A program made the position numbers and the translations under genes. This document shows, piece after piece, positions 6,698 through 48,743 of a stretch of 57,824 nucleotides of DNA. Positions within the stretch are counted from its first letter, which is position 1. Each line of letters opens with the position of its first letter. This stretch comes from Lachnospira sp. Lineage in GTDB: Bacteria > Bacillota > Clostridia > Lachnospirales > Lachnospiraceae. Under the pieces are notes generated by a model. That model saw only the letters and a program-made list of their open reading frames with translations, did not search any database and had not been told where the DNA came from. The stretch covers positions 1-57,824 of the forward strand of contig JAQUVV010000001.1 of the NCBI GenBank assembly GCA_028693195.1. Direction: 5' to 3'.

Positions 6698-6699
6698 AA

Positions 6700-7371
6700 A
6701 TGTTTGAAGTATTGATTGTTGAAGATGATCCAATGGTTGCTATGATTAATAAACAATATGTCAGTCAGAACCCTCATTTCCACGTGGCTGACATCTGTAA
6801 AGATGGATTATCAGCCTTAGAGTATCTGAAAACACATCTTATCCACCTGGTCATCTTAGATGTATATATGCCACGCAGCAATGGCCTTACACTTCTCCAA
6901 GAGATGCGGGCAGAAAATATTGATGTTTCCGTGATTATGGTTACCGCTGCAAATGATACTGCCACTGTAGAACAGGCACTAAAACTTGGCATCGTAGACT
7001 ATTTGGTGAAGCCTTTTATGTCCGATCGTTTCCAGCAGGCCCTGGAAAAATACTTATTTATACAGCAGTCCATACAGCGAGTCACCACTTTCAGTCAAGA
7101 ACACATCGACACACTGGTAGGCTCCACTGGTGAAAAAGTACTAGAACAGCTACCAAAGGGTATACAGACTCAAACATTAGACGTGGTAGTGGATTATTTA
7201 AAAACTCATAAAAATCAAGAACACACGGCAGAAGAAATTGCCGATCAAATCGGCTTATCCCGGGTAACCATAAGACGGTATATGAATTATCTTCTGGAAA
7301 CCGGCAAAATTACTGGACAAATGAACTATGAAACTGGGGGAAGACCCTGTATGGTCTATCGACTGGGGTAA
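6700..7371 (+). CDS. CitB/DcuR/MalR-family response regulator
   Basis: 'LIVEDDPMVAMIN', 'LDVYMP', 'DYLVKPF', C-terminal 'SRVTIRRYMNYL..GRP'. Confidence 0.92.
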   Translation: MFEVLIVEDDPMVAMINKQYVSQNPHFHVADICKDGLSALEYLKTHLIHLVILDVYMPRSNGLTLLQEMRAENIDVSVIMVTAANDTATVEQALKLGIVDYLVKPFMSDRFQQALEKYLFIQQSIQRVTTFSQEHIDTLVGSTGEKVLEQLPKGIQTQTLDVVVDYLKTHKNQEHTAEEIADQIGLSRVTIRRYMNYLLETGKITGQMNYETGGRPCMVYRLG

Positions 7372-7468: not shown

Positions 7469-8707
7469 CTACACTATCCCAGTTACAATTCGTGCCACCA
7501 ACACAATAAAGAACAACGCAAATGGATAAGTCGCTGCATATGCGCTGGCTACATCTTCTGTTCCAGCTGTTTCAATTAATGCACCTAAAGCAGGTGTACT
7601 TGTCATTCCTCCCGTAATGGATCCCAGTGCATTGAATAAGCTCATGTGGAACACATATTTCCCAAGGAAATATCCAATTACCATTGGTACTAAAGTGATA
7701 ATAATTCCAAAGATAAAATATGAAAGCTTTACGTTCTTCATGAAGTTTACTCCACCCGGTACTCCTGCTCCAATTAAGAACAATACCAATCCAAGCTCTC
7801 TAAAGAAGTTCAGTGATTCTTTTTTTAGCCTGCAGTCAAATGGACCAATGTGGCCAAAATGTCCAATAATAAGTCCCGCTACCAGAGTTCCTCCTGAAGT
7901 TCCTAAGTTAAAGTTTATCACTGGAATTTTAATACTTCCAATGATACACCCCAGCATAATCGTTGCTGCAAATGGGAAGAAATCCATGCTATCTACTTTC
8001 ATAAGAAGTCGTTTTACAGGTGGAATCTCCACGGCATTAGCTGCCACAAAGGATTCTCTTTCTTTGGCAATATCAACCCTCAGAATTTTTGGAAGCAACT
8101 GTACGAAAATTACCACGCCTAGTACACCAAATAAATATCCAATCCCATACCCGGCCGCTACTTTATTTGGATCCGCTGCTACCTCTTTGGCCGCCGAGAA
8201 TCCCGGCGTACTGGTTAGTGCTCCTGTCATCAATCCAATAACAAGACTAGAATCTACATTCGGATCTTTGCTGAATATGATGATTGCAATAGATGCCAGC
8301 GTTCCCAGTGCAATAATAATTACACCCATTAAAATGTATCCCAGTGATTTCTTGTTAAATGTTCGGAAAAATTTTGGTCCTGCAATTAATCCAACGGCCG
8401 TTACAAACATCGCCGTACCCAGGCTGGCTACCAGGGCATACACTTCCTTACTGGAGCCTAAGATCGTTCCATCTGCTAATGTCTTAGCCTCTGGTAGATA
8501 AAGGGTAATATTTCGTCCCCCAATGGCAATAACTGGCACATAGCTGGCAAGAACACCAAATACCAGCGCAATTAAAAGAACACCTGCTGATCCCAATGAA
8601 ATTCCTTTCACCGTGACTCTTCCTACCAGATATCCAAGGGTCATTATGGCAAATACGATAAACACAACCGATAAAAGTGTTTGCGTAAGATTCCCCAAAT
8701 ATTCCAT
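7469..8707 (-). CDS. AspT/YidE/YbjL-family transporter without TrkA-C domains; probable succinate exporter
   Basis: Duplicated motif 'GALTSTPG' / 'GGMTSTPALG', 'AYAATYP'; last gene of the fumarate reductase cluster. Confidence 0.8.
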   Translation of the reverse strand: MEYLGNLTQTLLSVVFIVFAIMTLGYLVGRVTVKGISLGSAGVLLIALVFGVLASYVPVIAIGGRNITLYLPEAKTLADGTILGSSKEVYALVASLGTAMFVTAVGLIAGPKFFRTFNKKSLGYILMGVIIIALGTLASIAIIIFSKDPNVDSSLVIGLMTGALTSTPGFSAAKEVAADPNKVAAGYGIGYLFGVLGVVIFVQLLPKILRVDIAKERESFVAANAVEIPPVKRLLMKVDSMDFFPFAATIMLGCIIGSIKIPVINFNLGTSGGTLVAGLIIGHFGHIGPFDCRLKKESLNFFRELGLVLFLIGAGVPGGVNFMKNVKLSYFIFGIIITLVPMVIGYFLGKYVFHMSLFNALGSITGGMTSTPALGALIETAGTEDVASAYAATYPFALFFIVLVARIVTGIV

Positions 8708-8731
8708 GATTTATTTCCTCCATTCCTTCTT

Positions 8732-8888
8732 CAATTATGCCTTGGCATAATTGCTGCGAGCGGCTGTCAGCTTTGCTGACATAATACAGCTGAGCCGCTC
8801 TGCAATCCTGCGGTCGGCTTTATCTACTTACAAGATAAATCAAATCACGCAAAGATATCCCCTCGGTTACACCCGCGGGATATCTTTG
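8732..8888. other. Highly structured intergenic segment (four hairpins)
   Basis: CAATTATGCC-TT-GGCATAATTG; GAGCGGCT[GTCAGC-TTT-GCTGAC]...AGCCGCTC; TTTATCT/AGATAAA; CAAAGATATCCC/GGGATATCTTTG. Confidence 0.6.
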
Positions 8889-8894
8889 GTGTTC

Positions 8895-10517
8895 TTATAA
8901 TACTGCCTGATTTAAGTAGTTTGCTTTTCTTCTGTAATCTGGTAATAATTTCGGAGATACTAAGTCAGTCTTGATACCAGTATCCTCTAATTCTTTTTCA
9001 AATTTATTCACATGATCTAATGTCAGATCTTTCACTTGAACATCTTTGAATTTCTTGGCTACCTCTTTACCAGCATCACGTCCAAATACAATAATATCAA
9101 GTAATGAGTTACCCATCAAGCGGTTTCTTCCATGGATTCCTCCTACCGCTTCTCCTGCTACAAATAAATTCTCTACAGAAGTCTGGCAATCTGCACCAAT
9201 TTGAATTCCACCATTCTGATAATGAAGGGTTGGGTAGATTAGAATTGGTACTTCTCTCATATCAATGTCATATTTCAAGTACATACGAAGCATTCCTGGA
9301 AGTCTCTTCTCCAATGTTCCTTCTCCATGAATTGCATCAATCATTGGTGTATCTAACCAGATACCTTTACCAAGTGGTGTTGTAACACCTTTTTCATTTG
9401 CACACTCACGAATAATAGAAGCGGCTGATACATCACGTGTTTCCAATGGATGCATAACTGCTTCTCCGGCTTCATTTACTAGCATCGCACCCATAGAACG
9501 CACTTTTTCTGTTACCAATGCTCCAAAAATCTGTTCTGGGAATGCCACACCAGTTGGATGATACTGTAATGTATCCTGGTATAATAATTCAGCACCTGCA
9601 CGGTATGCAAGTACAAGACCATCGGCAGTTGCACCATAGTGGTTAGATGTTGGGAATCCTTGATAATGAAGACGACCAGCACCGCCTGTAGCGATGATTA
9701 CTGTTTTTGCTTTGGCAATCAACAGTTCTTTTGTCTCCATATTCATCAGAACAGCTCCTGCTGCTTTTCCCTCTGAATCTTTGATAATTTCAATTGCAGA
9801 TGTAAAATCTACCACTGGAATCTGACGATTAATCACTTCGTCACGAAGTACACGCATAATCTCTGCACCTGAATAGTCGGCACATGCATGCATTCTCTTG
9901 CGAGATGTTCCTCCACCGTGAGTAGTAATCATAGTTCCATCTTTATCTTTATCAAACATAACACCAAGTTCATTCAACCATTTGATTGCGGATGGTGCTT
10001 CTGATACTAATTTACTAAGCAATTCTGGTTTGTTGGCAAAATGGCCACCGCCCAGCGCATCTAAATAATGAGTTGCTGGAGAGTCGTTCTCTTTGTCTGC
10101 TGCCTGAATTCCACCTTCCGCCATCATCGTGTTGGCATCACCAATACGAAGTTTGGTAACCATCATGACGTTTGCTCCACCTTCATTGGCTTCAATGGCT
10201 GCTGAAGATCCTGCTCCACCTGCTCCGATTACAAGTACATCTACATCATAATCTGGATTACTAAGATCTAATGATGCATCCTTAATTCGACTGTGAGCCT
10301 GAAGAAGTGCTCCTAATTCTGTCGGAACCTTTCCACCTTTGTTTGGACCCATCTGAAGTTGTACGAATTCATTCTCTCTATAATCAGGATGATACTGTTT
10401 CAACAATACATCTTTCTCATCCGCTGTCATTCTTCTTGGCTCTACGCCCATACGTTCTGCTCTAGTAGCTTCTACCTTTTTCACAGATTCAAGCATCTCT
10501 GGTGTAAACATGTTCAT
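8895..10517 (-). CDS. Soluble fumarate reductase flavoprotein (FrdA/TfrA-like)
   Basis: GAGGAG FAD motif; catalytic motifs QYHPT, ETRD, HYQNGG, HGRNRLMGNSL; covalent-FAD His replaced (ANTMMAEGG). Confidence 0.85.
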   Translation of the reverse strand: MNMFTPEMLESVKKVEATRAERMGVEPRRMTADEKDVLLKQYHPDYRENEFVQLQMGPNKGGKVPTELGALLQAHSRIKDASLDLSNPDYDVDVLVIGAGGAGSSAAIEANEGGANVMMVTKLRIGDANTMMAEGGIQAADKENDSPATHYLDALGGGHFANKPELLSKLVSEAPSAIKWLNELGVMFDKDKDGTMITTHGGGTSRKRMHACADYSGAEIMRVLRDEVINRQIPVVDFTSAIEIIKDSEGKAAGAVLMNMETKELLIAKAKTVIIATGGAGRLHYQGFPTSNHYGATADGLVLAYRAGAELLYQDTLQYHPTGVAFPEQIFGALVTEKVRSMGAMLVNEAGEAVMHPLETRDVSAASIIRECANEKGVTTPLGKGIWLDTPMIDAIHGEGTLEKRLPGMLRMYLKYDIDMREVPILIYPTLHYQNGGIQIGADCQTSVENLFVAGEAVGGIHGRNRLMGNSLLDIIVFGRDAGKEVAKKFKDVQVKDLTLDHVNKFEKELEDTGIKTDLVSPKLLPDYRRKANYLNQAVL

Positions 10518-10523
10518 CCCTCC

Positions 10524-11201
10524 TTATTTTTCAATTTCTCTTGTGTTGTAAAGTTCCTGAAGTTCTTCCACTGGTTTCTGCATTAATTTTTCAATTAATT
10601 CTGTGAAATCACCATTCTCAATTTCCTGAACGCGATTGGTTAAGTGAACAGATTCAGGTGCCAGATACTTACCTGTAATTCTGCGGGCCAATACACCAAC
10701 CTGAGCATGAGAAATTCCTGCTGGGCAGCGTGATGAACATACACCACACATTACACAGTCAAACGATTCTTCTGCACATTTTTCGAATTCTCCACGCTGT
10801 GCATATGCAATATACTGCATTGGGTTGATACCCTGTGTACAACTCTTGGTACATGCATTACATCCGATACAGCTATAAATCTCAGGATATAATTGCATCA
10901 TAACCTGCTCATTGGTTGATACGGTATTAATGTCGTATACTTCTTTTACCAATGGGAAATTTGGCAACGTAGCTATGTACATATTTTCCTGAACCTGTGT
11001 CTGACAGGCAAGACACGTTTTTAATTCCTTATCACCCTTGATTCTATAAAGTGTTGCACAGGCTCCACAGAATCCACAACGACATCCACATCCACGAACA
11101 AGTTGATATCCCGAATATTCCATAGCACCCATGATTGTCAGATTCGAAGGTACGCTGTACTTTTTCCCAAATAGGAATACATCAATCATTTTTTCTTCCA
11201 T
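10524..11201 (-). CDS. Fumarate reductase Fe-S subunit (2Fe-2S plus 2x4Fe-4S; FrdB/TfrB N-terminal-like)
   Basis: CRCGFCGAC..C, CIGCNACTKSC, CVMCGVCSSRCP; GGAGG RBS before ATG 11201. Confidence 0.8.
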   Translation of the reverse strand: MEEKMIDVFLFGKKYSVPSNLTIMGAMEYSGYQLVRGCGCRCGFCGACATLYRIKGDKELKTCLACQTQVQENMYIATLPNFPLVKEVYDINTVSTNEQVMMQLYPEIYSCIGCNACTKSCTQGINPMQYIAYAQRGEFEKCAEESFDCVMCGVCSSRCPAGISHAQVGVLARRITGKYLAPESVHLTNRVQEIENGDFTELIEKLMQKPVEELQELYNTREIEK

Positions 11202-11243
11202 TGTTATTATTTCCTCCATTTATTTCTGCAAAATGTCTCGTTT

Positions 11244-12077
11244 TTAGTACTCTGCTGGCAATTCGCCTAATTCATCATAACGGAATACTGGGCCATCTTT
11301 ACATACGTATTTGTCTCCGATATTGCAACGTCCACATTTTCCAACGCCACACTTCATCTTTAATTCCATCGTTGTATAAATCTGGTTTGTCTGAAAGCCA
11401 ATTTCCTGAAGTCCTGCAACTGTAAATTTAATCATAATTGGAGGTCCGCAGACTAATACGGTCTTATCGGTTGTAAATCCAAGATCTTTTACGTAGTTTG
11501 GTACAAAGGCTACATTGCCGTCCCATCCTTCCTGCTCACGGTCAATGGTTAAGTGAACATCGATTCCGTCGATATTAGACCAGGATTCCTGCATTTCTTT
11601 TAAATCTACCAAATCCTCTGCTGAACGAGCACCATATACCACATCTACTGTTCCATAGTTCTCACGGTTATCAATAACATAATTAATAACGGAACGAAGG
11701 GGTGCAATACCAATACCACCAGCTACAAATAACAGATTCTTCCCTTTTAATTCTGTTTCAACTGGGAAACATTTACCAAGTGGTCCACGGATTAAAATCT
11801 CCTGACCCACTTCCATCTGGTGAAGCCACTCTGTAACACATCCACATTTCTTAATGGAAAATTCCATGAATTCTTTATTTGTTGGAGATGACGTAATAGA
11901 GAACATCGCCTCTCCTACTCCAGGGATTGAGAGCATTGCACACTGTCCTGGCATATGTTCAAATACTTTTCCGCCTTCAGGAGCATTCACACGGAATGTC
12001 TTAACATCCGGTGTATCTCTTCTAATATCGGTTACAACACCAAGCTTAGGAATTAATACATCTTCTTTTTTAGTCAT
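11244..12077 (-). CDS. flxA: FlxA: FAD/NAD(P)H-binding 2Fe-2S subunit (AsrB/HydG/PyrK family)
   Basis: PGQ, AGGIGIAPLRS, CGPPIM, MKCGVGKCGRC..C.DGPVF. Confidence 0.85.
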   Translation of the reverse strand: MTKKEDVLIPKLGVVTDIRRDTPDVKTFRVNAPEGGKVFEHMPGQCAMLSIPGVGEAMFSITSSPTNKEFMEFSIKKCGCVTEWLHQMEVGQEILIRGPLGKCFPVETELKGKNLLFVAGGIGIAPLRSVINYVIDNRENYGTVDVVYGARSAEDLVDLKEMQESWSNIDGIDVHLTIDREQEGWDGNVAFVPNYVKDLGFTTDKTVLVCGPPIMIKFTVAGLQEIGFQTNQIYTTMELKMKCGVGKCGRCNIGDKYVCKDGPVFRYDELGELPAEY

Positions 12078-13098
12078 TCTTTTTCCCTCCTAAAGCCTTA
12101 ATTACTTTCACAATATTCAATGACTGTGGGCATTTCTGCAAACATCTGCCGCAACCAACACAAGAGAAATCTCCGTCATTATTAGCCGGGAAATATACCA
12201 GCTTATGCATAAATCTTTGACGAAATCTCTGAAGCTGTGTGGTTCTGTTATTTCCATGAGCCATCATTGTGAAATCAGAGTACATACAAGAATCCCAACA
12301 ACGGAATTTCTGTACACCATGTCCAGAATCATAATCACGAATGTCATAACACTGGCAAGTAGGGCATACAAAAGTACACGTTCCACATCCAAGACAGGCG
12401 CTTGACAGTGCTTCCCATTTTGGAGAATTGAACAATTCGTCTAGCGCATCACCGCCGAACCCTTCTAAAGACAAATCATGAAGTGGTGCTTTGGCAATCA
12501 TCTCTTTTACTTCTGTCTGCTGTTTCTTTACTTCCACATCATCAGCATCCACAAGAAGCTCTTTTACTTTGACAGTAAGTGCCTCTCCTTTTTCTGTTTT
12601 GCTGTCCCAGTATAAGGTATCTCCTACTATCCAAGTAACAACATCTCCTGCTGGAGAAGTTGCATCGATACCGAAGAGACCACAGAAACAGGTATCCGCA
12701 GGCTTAGAGCATGCCATTGATACAATGGTTCCATGTTTTCTTTTCGCTGCATAGTATGAATCGACTGGTTCGCTTAGGAATACTTTATCTAATACGTCAA
12801 AACTCTTTACATCACATGCACGGACACCAAAGTACACGGTTGGCTCTTCTGCATCTTCTGCTGCTTCGATTTCAATCTTCTTACCTTCTAATTTCGTCTT
12901 GTATAATACTTCTGTCTGTGGAAAGAAGAACCCTTTTGCCGACTTTACTGTATTAAGAGCATCTAATCTCACTTTTTCCTCTACACTCCAAAGGAAAAAT
13001 TCCACCTGGCCTGCACGCTCAATTGGTGCATACACCTTGCTATCCTGTCCTATAAGAGCGAAGAGTTCATTTAAGTTATCTATTGATAATTTATACAT
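12070..13098 (-). CDS. flxB: FlxB: AsrA/HydB-like Fe-S subunit
   Basis: GVRACD, CLGCGTCTFVCPTCQC, RFRQRFMHK, CVGCGRCLQKCP. Confidence 0.85.
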   Translation of the reverse strand: MYKLSIDNLNELFALIGQDSKVYAPIERAGQVEFFLWSVEEKVRLDALNTVKSAKGFFFPQTEVLYKTKLEGKKIEIEAAEDAEEPTVYFGVRACDVKSFDVLDKVFLSEPVDSYYAAKRKHGTIVSMACSKPADTCFCGLFGIDATSPAGDVVTWIVGDTLYWDSKTEKGEALTVKVKELLVDADDVEVKKQQTEVKEMIAKAPLHDLSLEGFGGDALDELFNSPKWEALSSACLGCGTCTFVCPTCQCYDIRDYDSGHGVQKFRCWDSCMYSDFTMMAHGNNRTTQLQRFRQRFMHKLVYFPANNDGDFSCVGCGRCLQKCPQSLNIVKVIKALGGKKND

Positions 13099-13100
13099 CT

Positions 13101-13976
13101 TTAATCCCTCCCTTTCTCATAGATTACGCTTGGTTCTGCATCTTCTTTCGTGAAGTTGGCAAGTGGTGGTCGGCTGTCTTCTGTCTCCCCTGCCTGATAC
13201 TCGCCATAGAGCTCGTTAATCTCTTTGATATACTTACGGTTAAATAAGTGAAGTGGAATGCCCTGTGGGCATACACGGCTACACTCCCCACAATCTGTAC
13301 ATCTTCCAGCCACATGGAACGCACGGATAATGTGGAACATCTTCTCTTCAAAGGAATCCGCATTGGCTTTACTGTCGATTCCGGAAGCGTGATTGTCAAA
13401 TACACATTTTAAACAAGTACATGCCGGACAGACATTGCGACACGCATTACATCGGATACATTTGCTAAGCTCACCCTGCCAAAATGCAAATCGCTCTTCC
13501 GGTGTCATTCCATCTAATTTTTCAACCAATTCGAATCGGTCTCTTGCTTCTGGTACAGTTAAGTCACTGTCCATTACTTCATCTGCAATCTTATGTTCAT
13601 TCCCTTTACAGGTGTTGCATTTCATCAGAAGTTCGCCCTTTTCGTCTTTCATCCCACCACATGGAATACCAAGGACAAATATTTTTTCTTTTTTAACACG
13701 ATGCTCTAACAATAATTCATTTAAACTATATGTATCGCAAGGTTTTAACAGCACCGCTACGTTTCCTTCTGCCTTGCTCTCTTTTACAAGATATTTGCTT
13801 AAGTTACTGCCACAGTACTCGTTATATACCAGTTCGTCAATATTCTCTTTGGTAAATGTAGCCGGAGAACAGTCATAATCAAACAGTCCTTTTTCCCATC
13901 CAATGACACGATCTACTGTACCATCTTCTAAAAGTGCTTTACATTTTGCAACGATTTCATCTCTTAATTTTTGCAT
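13101..13976 (-). CDS. flxC: FlxC: Fe-S subunit (FdhB/FrhB C-terminal-like)
   Basis: KPCD, CIRCNACRNVCPAC.C, RAFHVAGRCTDCGECSRVCP. Confidence 0.8.
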   Translation of the reverse strand: MQKLRDEIVAKCKALLEDGTVDRVIGWEKGLFDYDCSPATFTKENIDELVYNEYCGSNLSKYLVKESKAEGNVAVLLKPCDTYSLNELLLEHRVKKEKIFVLGIPCGGMKDEKGELLMKCNTCKGNEHKIADEVMDSDLTVPEARDRFELVEKLDGMTPEERFAFWQGELSKCIRCNACRNVCPACTCLKCVFDNHASGIDSKANADSFEEKMFHIIRAFHVAGRCTDCGECSRVCPQGIPLHLFNRKYIKEINELYGEYQAGETEDSRPPLANFTKEDAEPSVIYEKGRD

Positions 13977-14407
13977 CGCAGATCCCTCAACTTTCTGTTT
14001 GGTCCAAGCTCTTTAACTGCGGAAACAAACTCATTCATTGTTGCAGAGAATTTAGCGCCCTCTGCTGCGGAAACCCACTCCACTCTGGTACGTTCTTTCT
14101 CAATTCCCAGATAGTCTAACATGCCGAATAACATTGTCATTCTACGTCTTGCATAGTAGTTACCTGTTGAGTAATGGCAATCTCCTGGGTGACATCCACA
14201 AAGGATCACACCGTCTGCTCCTCTTTCAAAGGCACGAAGGATGAACATTGGATTTACACGGCAAGAGCAAGGTACACGGATAATCTTAACATCTGCTGGA
14301 TAAGATGCTCTGCTTGATCCTGCTAAATCCGCACCTGCATAACTGCACCAGTTGCAACAAAAGGCAACGATAGTTGGTCTAAATTCGCCATTTTCATTTA
14401 TTTGCAT
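13964..14407 (-). CDS. flxD: FlxD / MvhD-like 2Fe-2S subunit
   Basis: FCCNWCSYAGADLAG, RVPCSCR, GCHPGDCHY, WVSAAEG; start reassigned to ATG 14407 after GGAGG. Confidence 0.9.
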   Translation of the reverse strand: MQINENGEFRPTIVAFCCNWCSYAGADLAGSSRASYPADVKIIRVPCSCRVNPMFILRAFERGADGVILCGCHPGDCHYSTGNYYARRRMTMLFGMLDYLGIEKERTRVEWVSAAEGAKFSATMNEFVSAVKELGPNRKLRDLRCKN

Positions 14408-16401
14408 ATCGCATCTACCTCCGCCATAATCTGTCTCGTTGAGAATCCCTGTAAATCCATAGCTCCAGATGGACAAGCAACTGTACAAGCCCCACAGCCC
14501 TGACATACTGCACTGTTAACCTGAGCCAGTCTACGTGTCTCACGTACACCATGATCATTTACTTCCTTCTCTTCGTATGTAATCGCTCCATATGGACATA
14601 CATTGGCACATACAGAACATCCACTACATAATAATTCCTCTGATTTTGCTACACATGGATTGGCAATCAACTTGTCTTTGCATAGAAGTCCAATCACCTT
14701 GGACGCTGCCGCTCCGGCCTGTGCAACGGTCTCAGGAATATCTTTTGGTCCCTGGCACACACCAGATAAGAATACACCGGCTGTTGGACTTTCTACTGGA
14801 CGAAGTTTTGCGTGAGCCTCTGTTAAGAAGTTGTTTGTATCAATACTTGCCGTCAGCATAGTCGCCAGATCTTTTACAGATTCATCAGGCTCAATTGCTG
14901 TTGCCAGTACCACCATATCCGTCTCCAGTAATAACTGTTCATTGGCTAACAAATCAGAACCCTGAACTAAAAGACGGCCATTGCTTCTGGTAGAAACTTT
15001 ACCTACCATCCCTTTAATATAATCCACACCATATTCCTCTACTGCACGACGGTAGAACTCATCAAAGTTCTTACCAGGAGTACGAACATCAATGTAGAAT
15101 ACGTGCACATTCACATCCGGATATTTATCACGAATCAACATTGCATGTTTTGCTGTATACATACAACAAATCTTTGAACAGTATCCTTTTTCACGACAGG
15201 ACTCTCCACGAGAACCTACGCACTGGATGAATACCATATCTGTCGGATGTTTATGATCAGAAGGTCTAACTAATTTTCCTTTTGTTGGTCCAGCTGCGTT
15301 CATAATTCGCTCTAATTCCAGAGAGGTTACAACATCTGGGCTCTGTGAATACTGAAATTCATCGAACTTATCCACCTTGATTGGATTAAAACCTGTGGCT
15401 GCTACAATTGCACCGTATTCTCTGGTTACGATTTCATCTTCCTGCTCAAAATCAATGGCATTGACACCACATGTCTTCTGGCAGATACCACATTTGCCAG
15501 TCTTAAAATGAAGACAGGCATTTTTATCAATAGATGGGATATTCGGAATTGCCTGCGCAAATGGAATAAAAATTGCACTTCTTGTATCTAATCCCATGTT
15601 AAATTCATTTGGAGTTTTTCTAGATGGACATTTCTCTGTACAAGCTCCACACCCTGTACAAACATCCGTGTTAATATATCTTGCTTTCTTGCGAATATCC
15701 ACTGTAAAGTTTCCGACAAACCCTGATACATTGTCTACTTCGCTATAGGTATATAATGTAATCTTGTCATTGGCTGAAGCGTCTACCATCTTAGGAGTTA
15801 AGATACAAGCAGCACAGTCTAATGTAGGGAATGTCTTATCAAGCTGAGCCATCTTACCACCAATGGTCTGTTTCTTTTCTACAATATCAACCTCGAATCC
15901 TGCATCTGCAATGTCCAAAGCTGTCTGAATACCTGCAATACCACCACCTATAACCAACGCTCTCTTGGTTACTGGATTCTCTCCTGCAATAAGCGGTGTG
16001 TTTAAGTTTAATTTTGCAACAGCAGATCTTCCTAAGATGATCGCTTTTTCAGTTCCTTCTTCCATATCCTTATGAATCCATGAACACTGCTCACGAACAT
16101 TGGCAATCTCCACCATATATGGGTTCAGTCCGGCAGCTTCTGCTGTCTTTCTGAAGGTAGCTTCATGCATTCTAGGTGAACATGAACATACAACAATACC
16201 AGTCAGGCCATTATCTTTAATGGCATTCTTGATAATAAGCTGTCCTGCTTCCGAACACATATACTGGTAGTCTGTAGAGAATACAACACCAGGTTCATTT
16301 TTTAATGTTTCTGCCACTTTAGCAACATCTACAGTTCCTGCAATATTACTTCCGCACCAGCAAACAAATACGCCTATTTTCTGCAATTCATTCACTTCCA
16401 T
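14398..16401 (-). CDS. hdrA: Heterodisulfide reductase subunit A (bifurcating flavoprotein)
   Basis: IGVFVCWCGSNI, CSCSPRMHE, ANVREQCSW, GGGIAG, LDKTFPTLDC, QCVGSR, CSKICC, GPKDIPETVAQ. Confidence 0.95.
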   Translation of the reverse strand: MEVNELQKIGVFVCWCGSNIAGTVDVAKVAETLKNEPGVVFSTDYQYMCSEAGQLIIKNAIKDNGLTGIVVCSCSPRMHEATFRKTAEAAGLNPYMVEIANVREQCSWIHKDMEEGTEKAIILGRSAVAKLNLNTPLIAGENPVTKRALVIGGGIAGIQTALDIADAGFEVDIVEKKQTIGGKMAQLDKTFPTLDCAACILTPKMVDASANDKITLYTYSEVDNVSGFVGNFTVDIRKKARYINTDVCTGCGACTEKCPSRKTPNEFNMGLDTRSAIFIPFAQAIPNIPSIDKNACLHFKTGKCGICQKTCGVNAIDFEQEDEIVTREYGAIVAATGFNPIKVDKFDEFQYSQSPDVVTSLELERIMNAAGPTKGKLVRPSDHKHPTDMVFIQCVGSRGESCREKGYCSKICCMYTAKHAMLIRDKYPDVNVHVFYIDVRTPGKNFDEFYRRAVEEYGVDYIKGMVGKVSTRSNGRLLVQGSDLLANEQLLLETDMVVLATAIEPDESVKDLATMLTASIDTNNFLTEAHAKLRPVESPTAGVFLSGVCQGPKDIPETVAQAGAAASKVIGLLCKDKLIANPCVAKSEELLCSGCSVCANVCPYGAITYEEKEVNDHGVRETRRLAQVNSAVCQGCGACTVACPSGAMDLQGFSTRQIMAEVDAICK

Positions 16402-16460
16402 TCTTTCTATGTATTTTTATGGACTTCGCTGTGAATACGTCGTCCCGCATTATCATTTAC

Positions 16461-16853
16461 TTATTTTGCATATTTTCTAAAAGCACTAACCAACGCCTGT
16501 TGAGGAATCTCGCTGTCTAACTTCGCTGGAATATCGTTAGCAGTCAGATGATTCTGATTCTGCTGACGAATCACTTCTAATCGAACTGCCTCTACCAGTT
16601 TAGCCGGCTCTACACTTCTTGGGCAACGCTCCACACAGGCAAAGCATGTTAAACAGTAGTAAAGTGACTTGGAATTCAATAGTGGCTCAATATTCCCTTT
16701 CTCTACCATAGCAACAAACTGATGTGGATGGTATTCCATCTCATCGAATGCTGGACATGTTCCAGAACATTTTCCACATTTCATACATTTCTTTGGATTC
16801 ACTCCACTGGTTCTTAAAATAGATTCTTTTAAGTTTGTATTTTCACTCATCAC
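16461..16853 (-). CDS. hdrC: Heterodisulfide reductase subunit C
   Basis: CMKCGKCSGTCP and CLTCFACVERCPR; lies between hdrB and hdrA. Confidence 0.88.
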   Translation of the reverse strand: MMSENTNLKESILRTSGVNPKKCMKCGKCSGTCPAFDEMEYHPHQFVAMVEKGNIEPLLNSKSLYYCLTCFACVERCPRSVEPAKLVEAVRLEVIRQQNQNHLTANDIPAKLDSEIPQQALVSAFRKYAK

Positions 16854-16861
16854 GCTTCCTC

Positions 16862-17647
16862 CTATTCTTTCACGCCTAAAGCTTCTGCTAATAGCTCCGT
16901 GAAGTAATGTACTGGGAGCTGGTGATCAGTACTGTTTTCTTTTAAATTATACATACATAAAGGACAGGCTGTAATTAACTCTTCTACACCGTATTCTGCT
17001 GCAGATGCCATCACTGCATTGCAACGCTTTGTAGCAAATGACTTATCCTCTACGGTGACATAACCTCCACAACATTCGTTTCTCTGTGCATACACAACTG
17101 GTGTGGCACCAAGCGCTGTAATAAAGTCCTCCATAATAGTAGGATTCTCTGGATCATCAAAAGCCATCTCCTTACTTGGACGAAGAAGCAGGCATCCGTA
17201 ATAGGCACCTATCTTTCTTCCCGTCAAAGGATTTGTCACCTTCTCCTTAATCTTATCGAATCCAACCACATCACGTAACATCTCTAAATAGTGCAATACG
17301 TTAGTTTCCCCATGATATGGAGTCTCAAACTGTGCATAGTTATTCACTTTTAGCTGAACGTTCTCATCGTGCTGCATATCGTAATTCACACGTTTAATTA
17401 CATTGTGACATGCAGAACAGACTGTCACGAGATCCTTGCCTGCATCTCTTGCGCTTACTAATGTTCGTACAGATGAAAGCTTTGTCGCAATCTCATCTTT
17501 GGCTACTGGATATACACCACCACAGCACTGCCATTCCCCTATTTCATCCAATGTGACACCTAGAGCTTTGGCAGATTCTACTGCATACTTATCCAAATCT
17601 TTTGCCTTTGTTTTCAGGGTACAACCCGGGTAATAACTAAAGTTCAT
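16862..17647 (-). CDS. hdrB: Heterodisulfide reductase subunit B
   Basis: YYPGC, two CCG domains (WQCCGG, NECCGG), YYGCLLLRP, TACPLC. Confidence 0.92.
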   Translation of the reverse strand: MNFSYYPGCTLKTKAKDLDKYAVESAKALGVTLDEIGEWQCCGGVYPVAKDEIATKLSSVRTLVSARDAGKDLVTVCSACHNVIKRVNYDMQHDENVQLKVNNYAQFETPYHGETNVLHYLEMLRDVVGFDKIKEKVTNPLTGRKIGAYYGCLLLRPSKEMAFDDPENPTIMEDFITALGATPVVYAQRNECCGGYVTVEDKSFATKRCNAVMASAAEYGVEELITACPLCMYNLKENSTDHQLPVHYFTELLAEALGVKE

Positions 17648-17711
17648 ATTCTCTTATCCAACCGAAATTGGATTGTCCCTCCTTTCTATTTCTTGTATTT
17701 TATACAAACTC

Positions 17712-18650
17712 TTATATGTCCAGAGTTTTAATAATGTCTTTCAATGTTTTTGCACTTACACGTAACTTTTCTTCTTCCTCTTCTGTTAGTTTCATCTCAA
17801 GACGGCTCTTCACTCCCTCAGGACCTACAACCGTTGGAAGACTTAAACATACATCTTCAATGCCATACTCGCCGTGTAACATAGTAGACAATGCACATAC
17901 AGAGTCAAATGCTGCTGTAAGGTTATCTACGATACGACATACAGAAACAGCAATGGCATAGAATGTAGCTCCCTTATTGGAAATGATTTTGCCACCGGAT
18001 TTCTGTACATATTCTAATACGGCATCATAATCAAGGGGCTCTGCTTCTCCTGCATATTTGTTATAGTATTCATTAATTTCAATTCCTGAAATGTTGGTGA
18101 GTGACCATGGAATAAATGAAGAATCTCCGTGTTCTCCTAATACATATCCGTGCACGTTTCTCTGTGAAACTTCCAGATGTTCTGAAATAGTAGAACGAAG
18201 TCTTGCAGTATCAAGGATGGTTCCTGAACCCATAATCTGCGTTTCAGGAATTCCTGATTCTTTCATAAACACATATGTCAAGATATCAACTGGATTACTT
18301 ACAATGATGTACTTGGCATTTGGTGCTTCCTTTGCAATCTTTGGAGCGATGTCCTGCATAATGCCCACATTAATCTGTGTCAATTCCAGTCTGGTCTGTC
18401 CTGGTTTTCTACCCATACCAGAAGTAATAACTACGATATCAGACCCCTTGGCATCTTCGTAGTCTCCCGCTGTTACTTTAATTGGGTCACGGAATGCAGT
18501 ACCCTGTAAAATATCCATGGCTTCCCCATCTGCTTTGTTTTTATTGATATCAATAATAACAATTTCAGATGCTACTGTTCCTGTAGCCAATGTAAATGCT
18601 ACTGTGGCTCCTACTGAACCAGCTCCGATTACGGTGATTTTTGTACCCAT
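17712..18650 (-). CDS. mdh: LDH-like 2-hydroxyacid dehydrogenase, probably malate dehydrogenase
   Basis: GAGSVG, SNPVD, LDTARL, GEHGDS; substrate loop GMGRKPGQTR has Arg (MDH-type) where LDHs have Gln. Confidence 0.75.
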   Translation of the reverse strand: MGTKITVIGAGSVGATVAFTLATGTVASEIVIIDINKNKADGEAMDILQGTAFRDPIKVTAGDYEDAKGSDIVVITSGMGRKPGQTRLELTQINVGIMQDIAPKIAKEAPNAKYIIVSNPVDILTYVFMKESGIPETQIMGSGTILDTARLRSTISEHLEVSQRNVHGYVLGEHGDSSFIPWSLTNISGIEINEYYNKYAGEAEPLDYDAVLEYVQKSGGKIISNKGATFYAIAVSVCRIVDNLTAAFDSVCALSTMLHGEYGIEDVCLSLPTVVGPEGVKSRLEMKLTEEEEEKLRVSAKTLKDIIKTLDI

Positions 18651-18697
18651 AGTTTCTCTCCTCTTGTTCTAAGATAGTTTAATTTCATATTGTTACA

Positions 18698-18714
18698 CGT
18701 TAATTTTTTAACAT
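18698..18714. promoter_or_regulatory. Rex-like operator upstream of mdh-hdr-flx-frd
   Basis: CGTTAATTTTTTAACAT (GTTAA-N4-TTAAC), just downstream of a TTGAAC...GATAAT promoter on the minus strand. Confidence 0.6.
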
Positions 18715-18817
18715 CTTTGTCTATATTATCACAATCATAAGGTATAGTTCAACCTTTTATTTGTAAAATTATTTTTTAAAGTTTTTCTTTCATTCATGTG
18801 ATTAATTCATCATACAA

Positions 18818-18857
18818 AATTGACTTTCTGCGATTATAAATCTGGCAGAAGTCAATT
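18818..18857 (-). terminator. Terminator-like hairpin after the fumarase genes
   Basis: AATTGACTT(T)CTGC...GCAGAAGTCAATT. Confidence 0.55.
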
Positions 18858-18880
18858 CTCTATGACCTTGAAATGCTTAA

Positions 18881-19438
18881 TTATTTTTGTTTAGACAGAT
18901 AGTCCGCACGACCTTCTTCGTATAAATTATTACCTTCGCAGTCGATAATAACCACCAACGGCATCTCTTCCACATATAGCTTTCGAAGCGCTTCTGCTCC
19001 CAAATCTTCATATGCAATCAATTCCGCCTTTTTGATGGATTTGGCAATTAATGCGCCGGCTCCGCCAATGGCCCCAAAATATACGCCTTTATATTGCTTC
19101 ATAGCTTCTACAACTTCTGGAAGACGAGCCCCTTTACCAATCATTCCTCTGGCGCCAACAGACATCATAGTTGGTGCATAAGCATCCATACGTCCGCTGG
19201 TTGTTGGGCCTGCAGAGCCAATTACCTTACCAGGCATAGCTGGTGTCGGTCCTACATAGTAGATGGTTGCATCCTTTGGATCCATTGGAATCTCTTCTCC
19301 CTTTGCCAAAGCTTCACACATACGCTTGTGACCAGCATCACGAGATGTGTAAATGGTTCCAGTAAGATATACGGTATCTCCTGCATGTAATGTTTCTGCT
19401 AATTCTGCTGTCAAAGGCAGCTGGATATGTTTTTCCAT
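18881..19438 (-). CDS. Class I Fe-S fumarate hydratase, beta subunit (TtdB/FumB C-terminal family)
   Basis: RDAGHKR, GPTTSGRMD, MIGKG, EDLGAEA. Confidence 0.9.
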   Translation of the reverse strand: MEKHIQLPLTAELAETLHAGDTVYLTGTIYTSRDAGHKRMCEALAKGEEIPMDPKDATIYYVGPTPAMPGKVIGSAGPTTSGRMDAYAPTMMSVGARGMIGKGARLPEVVEAMKQYKGVYFGAIGGAGALIAKSIKKAELIAYEDLGAEALRKLYVEEMPLVVIIDCEGNNLYEEGRADYLSKQK

Positions 19439-19439
19439 T

Positions 19440-20282
19440 TTAGATTACCTCCGTTTTATGTCTTGTTACGTGACAGTTAATGTTGATGGCACATGGCATA
19501 CCTGCAATGTGTGTTGGTAAAGTCTCTATATTAAGACCAATGGCTGTTGTCTTTCCACCGAATCCCTGAGGTCCAATACCAAGTTTATTCACCTTTTCAA
19601 GCATTTCTTCTTCTAAGTCTGCGTAATATGGGTCCGGGTTTTTGCTATCAATATCTCTCATTAATGCTTTTTTCGCAGATAAGGCAGCTTTATCAAATGT
19701 TCCGCCAATACCAACTCCAATTACCATTGGTGGACATGGATTTGGTCCAGCTGTCTCTACAGTTTCTAATATAAAGTCCTTAATGCCCTGAATTCCGGCA
19801 GATGGTTTAAACATACGAATGGCACTCATATTCTCGCTGCCAAATCCCTTTGGTCCAACAGTAATCTTAATCTGCTCTCCTGAAACAATCTCAGTATAAA
19901 TCATAGCTGGTGTGTTATCACCTGTATTGCCTCTGCGAACTGGATCTTTTACTACAGATTTTCGAAGATATCCTTTGTCGTATCCACGACGTACACCTTC
20001 ATTAATAGCATCATCTAGGTTGGCACCTGTAATATGTACATCTTGTCCAATCTCTAAAAACACACAAGCCATACCTGTATCCTGACAAATAGGTACATTT
20101 TCGCTGTCAGCAATCTCAAAGTTTGTTACAATTTTATCTAGCACTCCCTGAGCAATCTCATAATCTTCACAAGCTCTGCATGTTTTAATAGCCCCTTGAA
20201 CATCCTTAGGCAGATGGTAGTTTGCTTCAATACAAAGCTTTTCCACTATATCTGTGATTTGTTGTGCATTAATATCTCGCAT
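19440..20282 (-). CDS. Class I Fe-S fumarate hydratase, alpha subunit
   Basis: [42 protein letters not shown]. Confidence 0.9.
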
Positions 20283-20379: not shown

Positions 20380-20410
20380 TTATTGACATATGTTAATAAT
20401 AATATATAAT
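20380..20410 (+). promoter_or_regulatory. Promoter with overlapping palindromic operator for the DUF134 gene
   Basis: TTGACA-16-TATAAT; palindrome TTATTGACAT|ATGTTAATAA (1 mismatch) over the -35. Confidence 0.65.
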
Positions 20411-20458
20411 AAATTTATGAACTACTACTATTTTACCACACTTGAAAGGGGGATTCTT

Positions 20459-21190
20459 ATGGCCCGACCAAACAAACAACGGTCCGTATGCCGTATGCCG
20501 GGCTGCCGACAATTTTATCCTGCACACCGCCCAACTGACTCTATTACACTTCTTCTTTCGGTGGAAGAATACGAAGTACTTCGATTGATAGACTATTCCG
20601 GTATGAGCCAGCAGGAAGCTGCAGCACATATGACGGCATCCCGCACCACCATTCAGGGCCTTTATGCTGAAGCCCGTAAGAAGCTTGCCCGATTCCTGGT
20701 AGAAGGTGCAACCCTCTCCATTGAGGGTGGAAGTTATGAATTATGTAACCAAAACAAATCCTGCTGCGGCAGGCATCAAGAAAAAGGAGAATTCACTATG
20801 AAAATTGCAGTAACTTATGAAAATGGACAGATTTTTCAACATTTTGGACACACAGAACAATTCAAAGTATATGAGGTAGAAAACGGAGAAGTCCAGTCCT
20901 CTGAAATCGTTGACACTAACGGGCAGGGACATGGGGCATTGGCTGATTTCCTTTTCAATGGTGGAATTCAGGTTCTAATCTGTGGTGGAATTGGTGGCGG
21001 TGCCAGAAATGCACTGGCAGAAGCTGGAATCGAATTATATCCAGGTGCTTGTGGAGATGCTGATGCACAGGTTGCTTCTTTCCTTCAGGGAAAGTTGCAG
21101 TACGACCCAGATACAATGTGCAGTCACCATACTCACGAAGAGGGGCACACTTGCGGTAATCACGGCTGTGGCAGCGACAGTTGCCATTAG
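20459..21190 (+). CDS. DUF134 HTH regulator fused to a NifB/NifX-family domain with His/Cys-rich tail
   Basis: MARP..R..C, EEYEVLRLIDY.G.SQ.EAA..M..SRTT; second domain IFQHFGH..F, LICGGIGGGA. Confidence 0.8.
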   Translation: MARPNKQRSVCRMPGCRQFYPAHRPTDSITLLLSVEEYEVLRLIDYSGMSQQEAAAHMTASRTTIQGLYAEARKKLARFLVEGATLSIEGGSYELCNQNKSCCGRHQEKGEFTMKIAVTYENGQIFQHFGHTEQFKVYEVENGEVQSSEIVDTNGQGHGALADFLFNGGIQVLICGGIGGGARNALAEAGIELYPGACGDADAQVASFLQGKLQYDPDTMCSHHTHEEGHTCGNHGCGSDSCH

Positions 21191-31138: not shown

Positions 31139-31153
31139 GGATTGCCGCCCCCT

Positions 31154-36299: not shown

Positions 36300-36330
36300 T
36301 AGGGTGTGAAATGTAAGCTTAGGGTGTGAA
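36300..36330 (-). promoter_or_regulatory. 11-bp direct repeat, candidate LytTR binding site for the surface-protein operon
   Basis: TTCACACCCTA-N9-TTCACACCCTA, 27 bp upstream of TATACT (36267-36272). Confidence 0.55.
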
Positions 36331-48731: not shown

Positions 48732-48743
48732 CCTTGCCACCTC

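What the first reader, a model, noticed from the sequence alone, without database searches (positions are those of the whole stretch)
7469..20282. Complete cytoplasmic succinate pathway coupled to an HdrABC-FlxABCD electron-bifurcating module
Seen: all on one strand, fumarase alpha/beta, then mdh-hdrB-hdrC-hdrA-flxD-flxC-flxB-flxA-frdB-frdA, then an AspT/YidE exporter. There is no FrdCD anchor or cytochrome, and no DsrC or CoM/CoB gene in the window. Established: HdrA bifurcates electrons, Flx-Hdr oxidises NADH in sulfate reducers, and similar clusters with thiol:fumarate-reductase-like genes have been noted in clostridia. Inference: NADH electrons are split between fumarate (high potential) and ferredoxin (low potential), giving quinone-free fumarate reduction. 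I know of no biochemical proof, and the disulfide carrier is unidentified.
Basis: partly seen in the sequence, partly recalled or inferred. Interest (0 to 1): 0.8.

Follow-up and report, generated by a model that had tools for sequence, protein, structure and literature searches.

The report
Fumarate reductase plugged into Hdr-Flx
A common operon of gut-type anaerobes joins a membrane-free fumarate reductase to an NADH-fed Hdr-Flx module that likely splits electrons between fumarate and ferredoxin; the idea has been in print since 2019 without any biochemical test that I could find, and a structure prediction here suggests the two parts plug directly into each other with no disulfide carrier.

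Summary
Observation confirmed: 13 genes on the minus strand, as listed. The same operon and the bifurcation idea are already in print for Pseudoclostridium thermosuccinogenes (PMC7282089, citing a 2019 preprint), and this scan noted it on other DNA at least seven times. I found no biochemical test.

The core order hdrBCA-flxDCBA-frdBA holds in 53 of 53 evaluable loci. Catalytic and cluster residues are intact.

Added here: the 'unidentified disulfide carrier' is probably not needed. 37 of 40 operon genomes hold one CCG protein, so there is no second thiol site. A predicted HdrB-HdrC-FrdB complex scores 0.90 (best control 0.00), with an FrdB [4Fe-4S] motif on HdrB's distal-cluster side. It also packs on a short HdrC tail found only in the Frd-linked HdrBC clade. 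Non-cubane clusters wire electrons to or from a protein (ETF) in BCRII and EMO.

Most likely: 2 NADH + fumarate + oxidised ferredoxin give succinate + reduced ferredoxin, recycled by Rnf. This is untested.

Caveat: this contig is probably mis-binned, so host context rests on other genomes.

The parts
19440..20282 (-). Class I fumarate hydratase, alpha subunit
   Evidence: NF004885 420 bits vs cut-off 276; tartrate dehydratase model 182 vs 365
18881..19438 (-). Class I fumarate hydratase, beta subunit
   Evidence: NF005310 289 bits vs cut-off 238
17712..18650 (-). LDH-like malate dehydrogenase (Arg at position 102 of LDH numbering)
   Evidence: PF00056/PF02866; aligned with solved LDHs; Arg in 32 of 35 loci
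16862..17647 (-). HdrB: two CCG domains, all 10 non-cubane cluster cysteines; member of an Frd-linked clade
   Evidence: PF02754 x2; solved HdrB E 4e-36; 10 Cys invariant in 46 rows; tree
16461..16853 (-). HdrC: 2x[4Fe-4S], short type whose 52-residue tail ends in P-x-Q...RK; the tail is the predicted FrdB contact
   Evidence: TIGR03290; tails; interface
14398..16401 (-). HdrA: likely bifurcating FAD subunit; Lys418 and Glu364 align with Lys409 and Glu356 of 5ODC
   Evidence: phmmer E 6e-201 over residues 7-664; Lys kept in 57 of 57 ORFs
13964..14407 (-). FlxD (MvhD-like [2Fe-2S] adaptor); start probably 14407
   Evidence: PF02662 185 bits; translation from 14407
13101..13976 (-). FlxC, Fe-S subunit
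   Evidence: 4Fe-4S dicluster domains; synteny
12070..13098 (-). FlxB, AsrA/HydB-like Fe-S subunit
   Evidence: PF17179; NF040829, TIGR02910 below cut-off
11244..12077 (-). FlxA, FAD/NAD(P)H-binding [2Fe-2S] subunit; likely the NADH entry point
   Evidence: PF00175, PF00970, PF10418
10524..11219 (-). FrdB-like FeS subunit: N-terminal [2Fe-2S], RnfC-like 2x[4Fe-4S], helical tail; no CCG domain
   Evidence: 12 cluster Cys invariant
8895..10517 (-). FrdA-like flavoprotein: dicarboxylate-site residues kept, covalent-FAD His replaced by Asn129, about 90-residue N-terminal extension
   Evidence: best NCBIfam TfrA 340 bits vs cut-off 718; alignment to SdhA; residues conserved in 31 further homologues; fold
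7469..8707 (-). AspT/YidE (aspartate:alanine exchanger family) transporter; likely succinate exporter or dicarboxylate antiporter
   Evidence: PF06826, TIGR01625; AspT structures; family includes succinate exporters (abstract of PMC9527358); nearby in 18 of 32 fully flanked loci
5078..7371 (+). DcuS/MalK-like sensor kinase and DcuR-like regulator, convergent with the operon; possible C4-dicarboxylate control, not conserved nearby
   Evidence: best NCBIfam hits, below cut-off; kinase found in 0 of 32 fully flanked loci at 40% identity or more

Best explanation
The operon encodes an oxaloacetate-to-succinate branch whose soluble fumarate reductase is predicted to dock directly on the HdrBC arm of an Hdr-Flx complex, which likely splits NADH electrons between fumarate and ferredoxin without quinone or a diffusible disulfide. 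Proposed path: FlxA takes NADH; FlxB/C/D pass electrons to the HdrA flavin. The low-potential electron would go to ferredoxin. The high-potential electron would run through HdrC's two cubanes, HdrB's proximal then distal non-cubane cluster, FrdB's [4Fe-4S] and [2Fe-2S] clusters, and FrdA's non-covalent FAD to fumarate. Net: 2 NADH + fumarate + oxidised ferredoxin give 2 NAD+ + succinate + reduced ferredoxin, about -18 to -49 kJ. Reduced ferredoxin would then drive ion pumping by Rnf or H2 formation. Shown: genes, order, residues, phylogenetic pattern. Predicted: the HdrBC-FrdB contact. Inferred: direction, bifurcation, cofactor specificity, export.
For: (1) The nine-gene core order is invariant (53 of 53), with mdh nearby in 22, fumarase in 13 and the transporter in 18 of 32 fully flanked loci. 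(2) FrdA keeps H320, T336, E337, R361, H432 and R466, aligned with SdhA H242, T254, E255, R286, H354 and R399 (roles recalled). They are kept in 31 of 31 further homologues apart from one Thr-to-Ser. The covalent-FAD His is Asn, which by established knowledge favours fumarate reduction. (3) HdrA is full length with the flavin Lys and Glu. (4) ESMFold2 for HdrB+HdrC+FrdB: score 0.90, best of 3 controls 0.00, runs agree in at least 98% of contacts, partner pLDDT at least 82. That mark was reached by 116 of 157 solved complexes and 2 of 215 mismatched pairs, counts that hold only roughly for this three-chain job. FrdB residues 103-144, including Cys117/Cys120, touch HdrB 9, 12-13, 38-43, 54-58, 105 and HdrC 104-128. 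HdrB's N-terminal Cys set binds the distal cluster (C42/C81 in the EMO preprint). (5) The contacted HdrC tail is a short type (47-56 residues) in 19 of 19 HdrC seen beside Frd-linked HdrB and in 51 of 51 gut loci. 42 of the other 43 HdrC have long tails of about 100 residues or more; the one short tail lacks the motif. (6) Among 251 genomes of the phylum, all 21 with HdrB at 264 bits or more also carry this FrdA; none of the 222 without FrdA does. These HdrB form one side of a branch (SH-aLRT 98). (7) 37 of 40 operon genomes have at most two CCG domains, that is one HdrB. FrdB has no CCG domain, so a thiol shuttle lacks its second site. DsrC was found in 2 of the 20 clade genomes. (8) In genomes without this HdrBC, the same FrdAB sits beside cytochrome b561/Fe-S or cytochrome c/FMN-binding genes, as expected for a head fed by protein contact. 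(9) Precedent: BamD passes HdrA-type high-potential electrons to ETF, and EMO uses non-cubane clusters as relays (passages). (10) UbiA over the cut-off in 2 of 40 and RnfC in 32 of 40 operon genomes. (11) Physiology cited in PMC7282089: high H2 almost abolished succinate formation in P. thermosuccinogenes, which its authors read as coupling to ferredoxin reduction.
Against: No biochemical assay exists in the library I searched. The complex is a model: it gave contacts, not cluster distances, and only one subunit combination was tried. All ten HdrB cysteines are invariant, whereas the wire-type BamD and EMO mostly have an altered distal cluster and a blocked cavity, so this HdrB could still cleave disulfides. 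Interface residues are barely more conserved than the rest (one-sided p 0.065 HdrB, 0.043 FrdB, 0.54-0.63 HdrC). FrdB interface identity does not clearly separate genomes with the clade (0.45-0.82) from those without (0.36-0.55). The clade has one origin, so the co-occurrence counts are not independent. 8 of 29 FrdA genomes lack the clade HdrB. In L096 (G084) hdrC-hdrB-frdB-frdA stand without an adjacent hdrA, which also fits a thiol:fumarate reductase. In the same study cited by PMC7282089, adding sulfide had the opposite effect to H2.
Confidence: 0.55

Rival explanations
1. Thiol-shuttle version: the same net bifurcation, but HdrABC-Flx reduces a small or protein-bound disulfide, and a separate HdrBC-FrdAB unit re-oxidises the thiols like the methanogen thiol:fumarate reductase.
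For: FrdA's best NCBIfam model is TfrA (340 bits). TfrB is a fusion of Fe-S and CCG domains, and FrdB, HdrC and HdrB each match it weakly. All 10 HdrB Cys are kept. One locus has hdrCB-frdBA without an adjacent hdrA (L096). PMC7282089 says Flx-Hdr passes electrons to ferredoxin 'and thiols'. The predicted FrdB-HdrBC contact fits this unit too.
Against: There is one HdrB per genome in 37 of 40, so the same site would have to reduce and re-oxidise the carrier. No carrier gene fits in the tight operon. DsrC was found in 2 of 20 clade genomes. FrdB has no conserved spare cysteine pair: C69 and C148 are lost outside the gut group and only C44 is broadly kept.
Confidence: 0.2
2. A plain soluble NADH:fumarate reductase. 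HdrABC serves as a wire only and both electrons reach fumarate, so the operon is an electron sink that conserves no energy.
For: It is thermodynamically easy (-60 to -68 kJ). Short circuits hampered in vitro assays of the HdrA-type BCRII. PMC4215793 (2014) notes Hdr/flox bifurcation was unproven.
Against: HdrA keeps the flavin Lys and Glu and the inserted and C-terminal ferredoxin domains at 68-82% identity across loci. Nine Fe-S and flavin subunits would be a costly way to do what FlxA plus FrdAB could. H2 suppressed succinate in P. thermosuccinogenes.
Confidence: 0.13
3. The flavoprotein reduces a different unsaturated dicarboxylate (such as a methylated fumarate), or works as an aspartate oxidase or a succinate dehydrogenase.
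For: No fumarate reductase model is met at its cut-off, and NadB models score about 270 bits. More distant homologues sit beside PrpD, PrpF, AtuA and aconitase genes. A Gly stands at the SdhA Phe position of the 'FGG' loop.
Against: Fumarase, malate dehydrogenase and an AAE-family transporter travel with it. P. thermosuccinogenes makes succinate and its operon is annotated so. Non-covalent FAD and the energetics (+18 to +49 kJ in reverse) argue against succinate oxidation. A separate nadA-nadB-nadC cluster exists in the bin, though that bin may be another organism.
Confidence: 0.07

Closest known systems
'Succinate operon' of Pseudoclostridium thermosuccinogenes (CDQ83_RS03365-03315; PMC7282089, citing Koendjbiharie and van Kranenburg, Preprints 2019, not held)
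   Same: Fumarate hydratase, seven Flx-Hdr genes, a two-gene fumarate reductase and a putative succinate transporter in one operon; proposed coupling of succinate formation to ferredoxin reduction (passages read).
   Different: Here mdh is in the operon and the fumarase has two subunits. The paper keeps 'thiols' as the Flx-Hdr acceptor, whereas my evidence favours direct docking. I did not compare its sequences; gene content is taken from the paper's figure legend.
FlxABCD-HdrABC (Hdr/flox) of Desulfovibrio (Ramos et al. 2015, seen only as a reference; PMC4215793 passages)
   Same: The same seven subunits in a similar order; proposed NADH bifurcation to ferredoxin.
   Different: The proposed high-potential acceptor there is DsrC. 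Other Bacillota Hdr loci have long-tailed HdrC and a separate HdrB group. I did not fetch Desulfovibrio sequences themselves.
Thiol:fumarate reductase TfrAB of methanogens
   Same: Soluble and anchor-less; FrdA's best model is TfrA; in both, a CCG unit feeds an Fe-S chain to a fumarate-reducing flavoprotein.
   Different: TfrA and TfrB cut-offs are not met (340 vs 718; 34 vs 385). The CCG part is a separate HdrB tied to HdrA. FrdA has an N-terminal extension and ends soon after the FAD domain. The donor would be NADH rather than CoM/CoB thiols.
Class II benzoyl-CoA reductase BamDE with ETF, and ETF:methylmenaquinone oxidoreductase EMO (bioRxiv 10.64898/2026.04.10.717634 and 10.64898/2026.08.18.745454)
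   Same: An HdrBC-like unit carries electrons between its non-cubane clusters and a docked protein partner, with no disulfide. In BCRII this is the high-potential arm of an HdrA-type bifurcation (passages).
   Different: Their partner is ETF, bound transiently; their distal cluster is modified and the cavity blocked. Here all 10 Cys are kept and the predicted partner is an Fe-S subunit of a terminal reductase.
Quinol:fumarate reductase and succinate dehydrogenase (FrdABCD, SdhABCD, SdhE-anchored types)
   Same: Flavoprotein fold (Foldseek E 2e-26 to 1KF6, TM 0.64) and dicarboxylate-site residues. HdrB scores nearly as high on the SdhE anchor model (139 bits) as on HdrB (143), both below cut-off.
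   Different: No membrane anchor, no covalent FAD histidine, an FeS subunit with two [4Fe-4S] motifs of RnfC-like spacing, and UbiA mostly absent in the gut genomes.

Membership tests
Flx-Hdr-linked fumarate reductase ('succinate operon') | hdrABC, flxABCD and a two-subunit fumarate reductase in one operon with fumarase | tested here: met
   gene list of PMC7282089
Flx-Hdr-linked fumarate reductase ('succinate operon') | Sequence orthology to the P. thermosuccinogenes proteins | not tested
   its sequences were not fetched
Flx-Hdr-linked fumarate reductase ('succinate operon') | Fumarate reduction coupled to ferredoxin reduction | not testable with these tools
   needs an enzyme assay; none found in searches
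HdrA-type electron-bifurcating module | Full-length HdrA with flavin Lys/Glu, inserted and C-terminal ferredoxin domains | tested here: met
   K418 = K409 and E364 = E356 of 5ODC; alignment over 7-664; Lys in 57 of 57. The residues' role is recalled; a Lys at the bifurcating FAD is described for BamE
HdrA-type electron-bifurcating module | MvhD-like adaptor and an electron-input module | tested here: met
   PF02662; FlxA/B/C domains
Heterodisulfide reductase HdrB (catalytic) | Ten cysteines of two non-cubane clusters | tested here: met
   invariant in 46 of 46
Heterodisulfide reductase HdrB (catalytic) | His154, proposed proton donor in methanogen HdrB | tested here: not met
   Leu153 here; Leu or Met in 53 of 53 gut loci. 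His in only 2 of 41 control bacterial HdrB, so the loss is general and not diagnostic
Heterodisulfide reductase HdrB (catalytic) | Open disulfide-binding cavity and disulfide turnover | not testable with these tools
   model coordinates were not returned; needs an assay
Thiol:fumarate reductase TfrAB | Curated TfrA/TfrB scores | tested here: not met
   340 vs 718 and 34 vs 385 bits
Thiol:fumarate reductase TfrAB | CCG domains fused to the FeS subunit | tested here: not met
   FrdB is 231 aa with no PF02754
Thiol:fumarate reductase TfrAB | CoM/CoB as electron donors | not tested
   no coenzyme M or B biosynthesis search was run
Quinol:fumarate reductase / SDH (complex II) | Membrane anchor or cytochrome b in the operon | tested here: not met
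   none in the tight core
Quinol:fumarate reductase / SDH (complex II) | Covalent FAD histidine (SdhA His45) | tested here: not met
   Asn129; Asn in 31 of 31 further homologues
Quinol:fumarate reductase / SDH (complex II) | Dicarboxylate-site His/Thr/Glu/Arg/His/Arg | tested here: met
Quinol:fumarate reductase / SDH (complex II) | SdhB/FrdB-type iron-sulfur subunit fold | tested here: inconclusive
   weak sequence matches only; the model has pTM 0.44 and its domains matched CODH, NuoG and hydrogenase domains best
L-aspartate oxidase NadB | Curated NadB score and nad gene context | tested here: not met
   269 vs 453 bits; no nadA/nadC in the operon
Malate dehydrogenase (LDH-like) | Arg at LDH position 102 | tested here: met
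   the rule is established knowledge, recalled

The most novel reading that the evidence does not exclude
This is a quinone-free, thiol-free 'soluble fumarate respiration' supercomplex. A dedicated HdrBC clade has swapped the membrane anchor for a short HdrC tail, so an HdrA bifurcation delivers its high-potential electron through both intact non-cubane clusters straight into a terminal reductase. It would be a new flavin-based bifurcation reaction with fumarate as acceptor, the energy-conserving route to succinate in hundreds of quinone-less gut Clostridia, and a sign that bacterial HdrB partners can be docked proteins rather than disulfides.
Probability: 0.5. Interest if true: 0.75.

Novelty: new member of a known kind. 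Interest (0 to 1): 0.5.

Why it matters
Two open questions meet here: what accepts the high-potential electron in bacterial Hdr-Flx complexes that lack CoM, CoB and DsrC, and how gut Clostridia without quinones make succinate and gain energy from it. This operon carries its own acceptor enzyme, so the whole reaction can be assayed with NADH, fumarate and ferredoxin. The direct-docking model names residues to delete. Cultured carriers exist (Christensenella tenuis and C. intestinihominis loci; P. thermosuccinogenes in PMC7282089). The operon and the bifurcation idea are not new, which caps the score.

Tried and rejected
His154-to-Leu in HdrB as a sign of lost disulfide chemistry: rejected, since 39 of 41 control bacterial HdrB also lack His there. 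Extra FrdB cysteines as a built-in disulfide carrier: C69 and C148 are not kept outside the gut group. Interface conservation test: weak or null.

Own-genome context (Rnf, Ech-like genes, PEPCK, [FeFe]-hydrogenase, nadABC, an LDH with Gln102; no DsrC or UbiA found) was set aside because contig C292 is probably foreign to the bin. UbiA-family genes were found in 18 of 28 more distant FrdA genomes, so absence of quinones is not general outside the gut group; the family also includes non-quinone enzymes.

The promoter and terminator scan was at chance level (48 vs 46 expected; 17 vs 11). The FrdB fold search listed no SdhB/FrdB among its top 50 rows, which excludes nothing. The HdrB homologue search returned only close relatives without context. 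The careful HdrB tree did not finish, so the quick tree was used.

Literature: exact-phrase searches for 'electron-bifurcating fumarate reductase' and for 'thiol fumarate reductase' with Hdr, succinate and electron bifurcation found nothing. 'novel fumarate reductase' found only PMC7282089. A search to confirm 1Y6J as a malate dehydrogenase found nothing relevant. The 2019 preprint and a paper sought by a recalled DOI are not held, so I cannot say whether the preprint already proposes direct electron transfer. No supplements were read; those of the two 2026 bioRxiv preprints (CCG-domain phylogenies) could bear on novelty and are closed.

Full report
Observation. The nine genes hdrB to frdA are separated by at most 59 nt or overlap (flxD most likely starts at 14407). 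Pfam and NCBIfam identify: a two-subunit class I fumarase above its cut-offs; an LDH/MDH protein; HdrB (two CCG domains), HdrC and HdrA; an MvhD-like FlxD; two Fe-S proteins; an FAD/NAD(P) subunit; a [2Fe-2S]+2[4Fe-4S] protein; a fumarate-reductase-family flavoprotein; and an AspT/YidE transporter. A DcuS/DcuR-like two-component system converges on the operon's end. No anchor or cytochrome lies in the operon. The pathway is complete only from oxaloacetate onward.

Residues. FrdA keeps the six dicarboxylate-site residues of E. coli SdhA but has Asn129 at the covalent-FAD His45 (roles recalled). The pattern holds in 31 of 31 further homologues, with one Thr-to-Ser. Its best model is TfrA, far below cut-off (340 vs 718); NadB is also not met. 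The AlphaFold model (pLDDT 76, pTM 0.78) matches E. coli FrdA best. HdrA aligns with 5ODC over residues 7-664 and keeps Lys409 and Glu356; the Lys is present in 57 of 57 related ORFs. HdrB keeps all ten cluster cysteines. It lacks His154, but so do 39 of 41 unrelated bacterial HdrB, so I dropped that as evidence. The dehydrogenase has Arg at LDH position 102 (32 of 35 loci), which marks malate specificity by established knowledge. The FeS subunit is not a canonical FrdB: it has an RnfC-like dicluster and no CCG domain.

Distribution. A scan of the species-level genome collection gave at least 596 matches, of which the best 80 were kept. The titles are mostly gut and rumen Clostridia, plus Synergistaceae and Planctomycetota. 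All 53 loci with enough upstream DNA carry the nine core genes in order, and none of 80 breaks the order. In 40 of these genomes (completeness not given), UbiA passes its cut-off in 2, RnfC in 32, and 37 have at most two CCG domains, that is one HdrB. In an even draw of 251 genomes from the phylum, 29 have this FrdA. The 21 with the best HdrB scores (264 bits or more; the next is 235) are all among those 29.

Contexts. I fetched 39 regions around FrdA and those HdrB, plus 40 control HdrB regions chosen from the lower-scoring matches. The input side varies: Flx in most; a second long HdrA with an MvhD-like and a further Fe-S protein but no FlxA/B in seven loci; and no adjacent hdrA in one locus (L096). 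HdrBC stays. In four loci hdrB follows frdA directly; in six genomes the two modules lie apart. Where the special HdrBC is missing, FrdAB sits beside cytochrome b561/Fe-S genes (three genomes) or FMN-binding Fe-S genes (two genomes, one also with cytochrome c genes); three had no such neighbour or a broken contig. DsrC was found in 4 of 28 FrdA genomes, 2 of the 20 with the clade.

A dedicated HdrBC clade. In a 72-row quick tree, 29 Frd-linked HdrB form one side of a branch (SH-aLRT 98, no bootstrap). Their HdrC has a 47-56 residue tail after the second cluster motif, ending in P-x-Q...RK (19 of 19 in the phylum set, 51 of 51 by length in the gut set). 42 of 43 other HdrC have long tails. HdrB positions 12, 40, 57 and 58 also differ by clade. 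This is one evolutionary event, so the counts are not independent tests.

Predicted complex. ESMFold2 on HdrB + HdrC + FrdB scored 0.90, against 0.00 for the best of three controls. Runs agree in at least 98% of contacts and the partner's pLDDT is at least 82. The tool's mark was reached by 116 of 157 solved complexes and 2 of 215 mismatches, only roughly applicable to a three-chain job with my own alignments. FrdB residues 103-144, including Cys117 and Cys120, touch HdrB 9, 12-13, 38-43, 54-58 and 105 and the HdrC tail 104-128. HdrB's N-terminal cysteines bind the distal non-cubane cluster (C42 and C81 in the EMO preprint; Cys234 is proximal in the Dsr preprint). So FrdB is placed at the far end of the HdrC-to-HdrB chain, on the two surfaces that mark the clade. 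Replacing HdrB abolished the score. By sequence, the only solved relatives of HdrB are five methanogen HdrB chains, so no like HdrB-Frd complex was found to be remembered. The model still only supports binding. Interface conservation within the gut set is weak.

Mechanism. The most likely path is NADH to FlxA, through FlxB/C/D to the HdrA flavin, with one electron to ferredoxin and one through HdrC, HdrB, FrdB and FrdA to fumarate. With E0' of -320 mV for NADH and +33 mV for fumarate (PMC5861303 passages) and an assumed -420 to -500 mV for ferredoxin, the net change is -18 to -49 kJ. A thiol shuttle needs one site to reduce the disulfide and another to oxidise the thiols; these genomes have one CCG site and FrdB has none. 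Precedent for disulfide-free use of HdrBC-like units comes from two 2026 preprints, read in passages: BamD hands HdrA-type high-potential electrons to ETF, and EMO uses non-cubane clusters as relays. Against: in those enzymes the distal cluster is altered and the cavity blocked, whereas here all cysteines are intact. I give the direct-wire bifurcation 0.55, the thiol shuttle 0.2, an uncoupled wire 0.13 and another substrate 0.07. Bifurcation to fumarate by either route comes to about 0.75.

Host caveat. The bin (85.7% complete) has Rnf, Ech-like genes, PEPCK and an [FeFe]-hydrogenase, and no DsrC or UbiA was found. But the operon's FrdA was found in 0 of 24 same-genus genomes. Contig C292 is the largest in the bin, and six of its eight 10-kb chunks fall in the lowest 5-6% for tetranucleotide fit. 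It duplicates syntenic genes held on other contigs, such as the MutS2-like gene with a regulator and kinase (names read from the sequences). Its MutS2-like protein is 55-58% identical to the single copy in five genus relatives, against 69-76% for the other contig's copy. The Rnf region matches those relatives at 74-76% DNA identity while the window's flanks hardly match. The contig is probably from another organism, so I rest host context on the 40 other genomes.

Prior knowledge. PMC7282089 (passages) describes a 'succinate operon' with fumarase, Flx-Hdr, fumarate reductase and a putative transporter, and assumes coupling to ferredoxin reduction. [quoted passage not shown] PMC4215793 (passages) treats Hdr/flox bifurcation as a proposal. 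The HdrA preprint notes a predicted HdrA link to fumarate reductase in Ruminococcus champanellensis (passages). Searches (listings only, apart from the papers named) showed no biochemical test and no direct-docking proposal, but the library lacks most subscription papers.

Verdict. The feature is real and a new member of a system already proposed in print. The gain is a specific, testable architecture that removes the missing carrier. Interest 0.5.

Noticed in passing
G000 contig C292 (window plus L162, L163): The contig is probably mis-binned: atypical tetranucleotides, second copies of MutS2-like, regulator, kinase and other housekeeping genes, and low identity to genus relatives.
   Followed up: yes
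window 44341-57824, continuing in L162: Phage-like or mobile module: PLD-type nuclease, large and small terminase, amidoligase, ParB-methylase, HNH, SNF2 helicase. Beyond the window, ORFs that read like a primase, a DNA polymerase and a type I restriction-modification set (by eye, not scanned).
   Followed up: no
window 24206-36019 and 42117-44132: Very large secreted-looking proteins of 2310 aa (one Calx-beta domain) and 1621 aa (no Pfam match at 1e-6), and a 671-aa MBG-domain protein.
   Followed up: no
window 20390-21190: Divergent gene fusing DUF134 to a NifX/FeMo-co-binding domain, right upstream of the operon; a perfect sigma-70 consensus lies at 20383-20410. It might help Fe-S assembly or be unrelated.
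   Followed up: no
L087, L097, L102, L108, L109, L110: The same FrdAB family beside FMN-binding Fe-S genes (with cytochrome c genes in L087) or cytochrome b561/Fe-S genes, the latter near aconitase, PrpF or PrpD: alternative, apparently membrane-linked electron routes.
   Followed up: partly
L103, L104: Second FrdA copies with no FrdB, next to an AtuA-family gene (both) and a PrpD-family gene (L103): possibly a reductase for another unsaturated acid.
   Followed up: no
L088, L089, L093, L094, L105, L120, L121: Variant with a second, long HdrA (1050-1540 aa), an MvhD-like protein and another Fe-S protein but no FlxA/B; in L088 a 2-oxoacid:ferredoxin oxidoreductase gene follows frdA.
   Followed up: partly
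L122-L158 (many control loci): hdrA appears as about 200 + 465 aa frames separated by a single stop codon, possibly selenocysteine; the codon was not checked.
   Followed up: no
window 36319-38567: bioD-like, bioB and bioY biotin genes.
   Followed up: no
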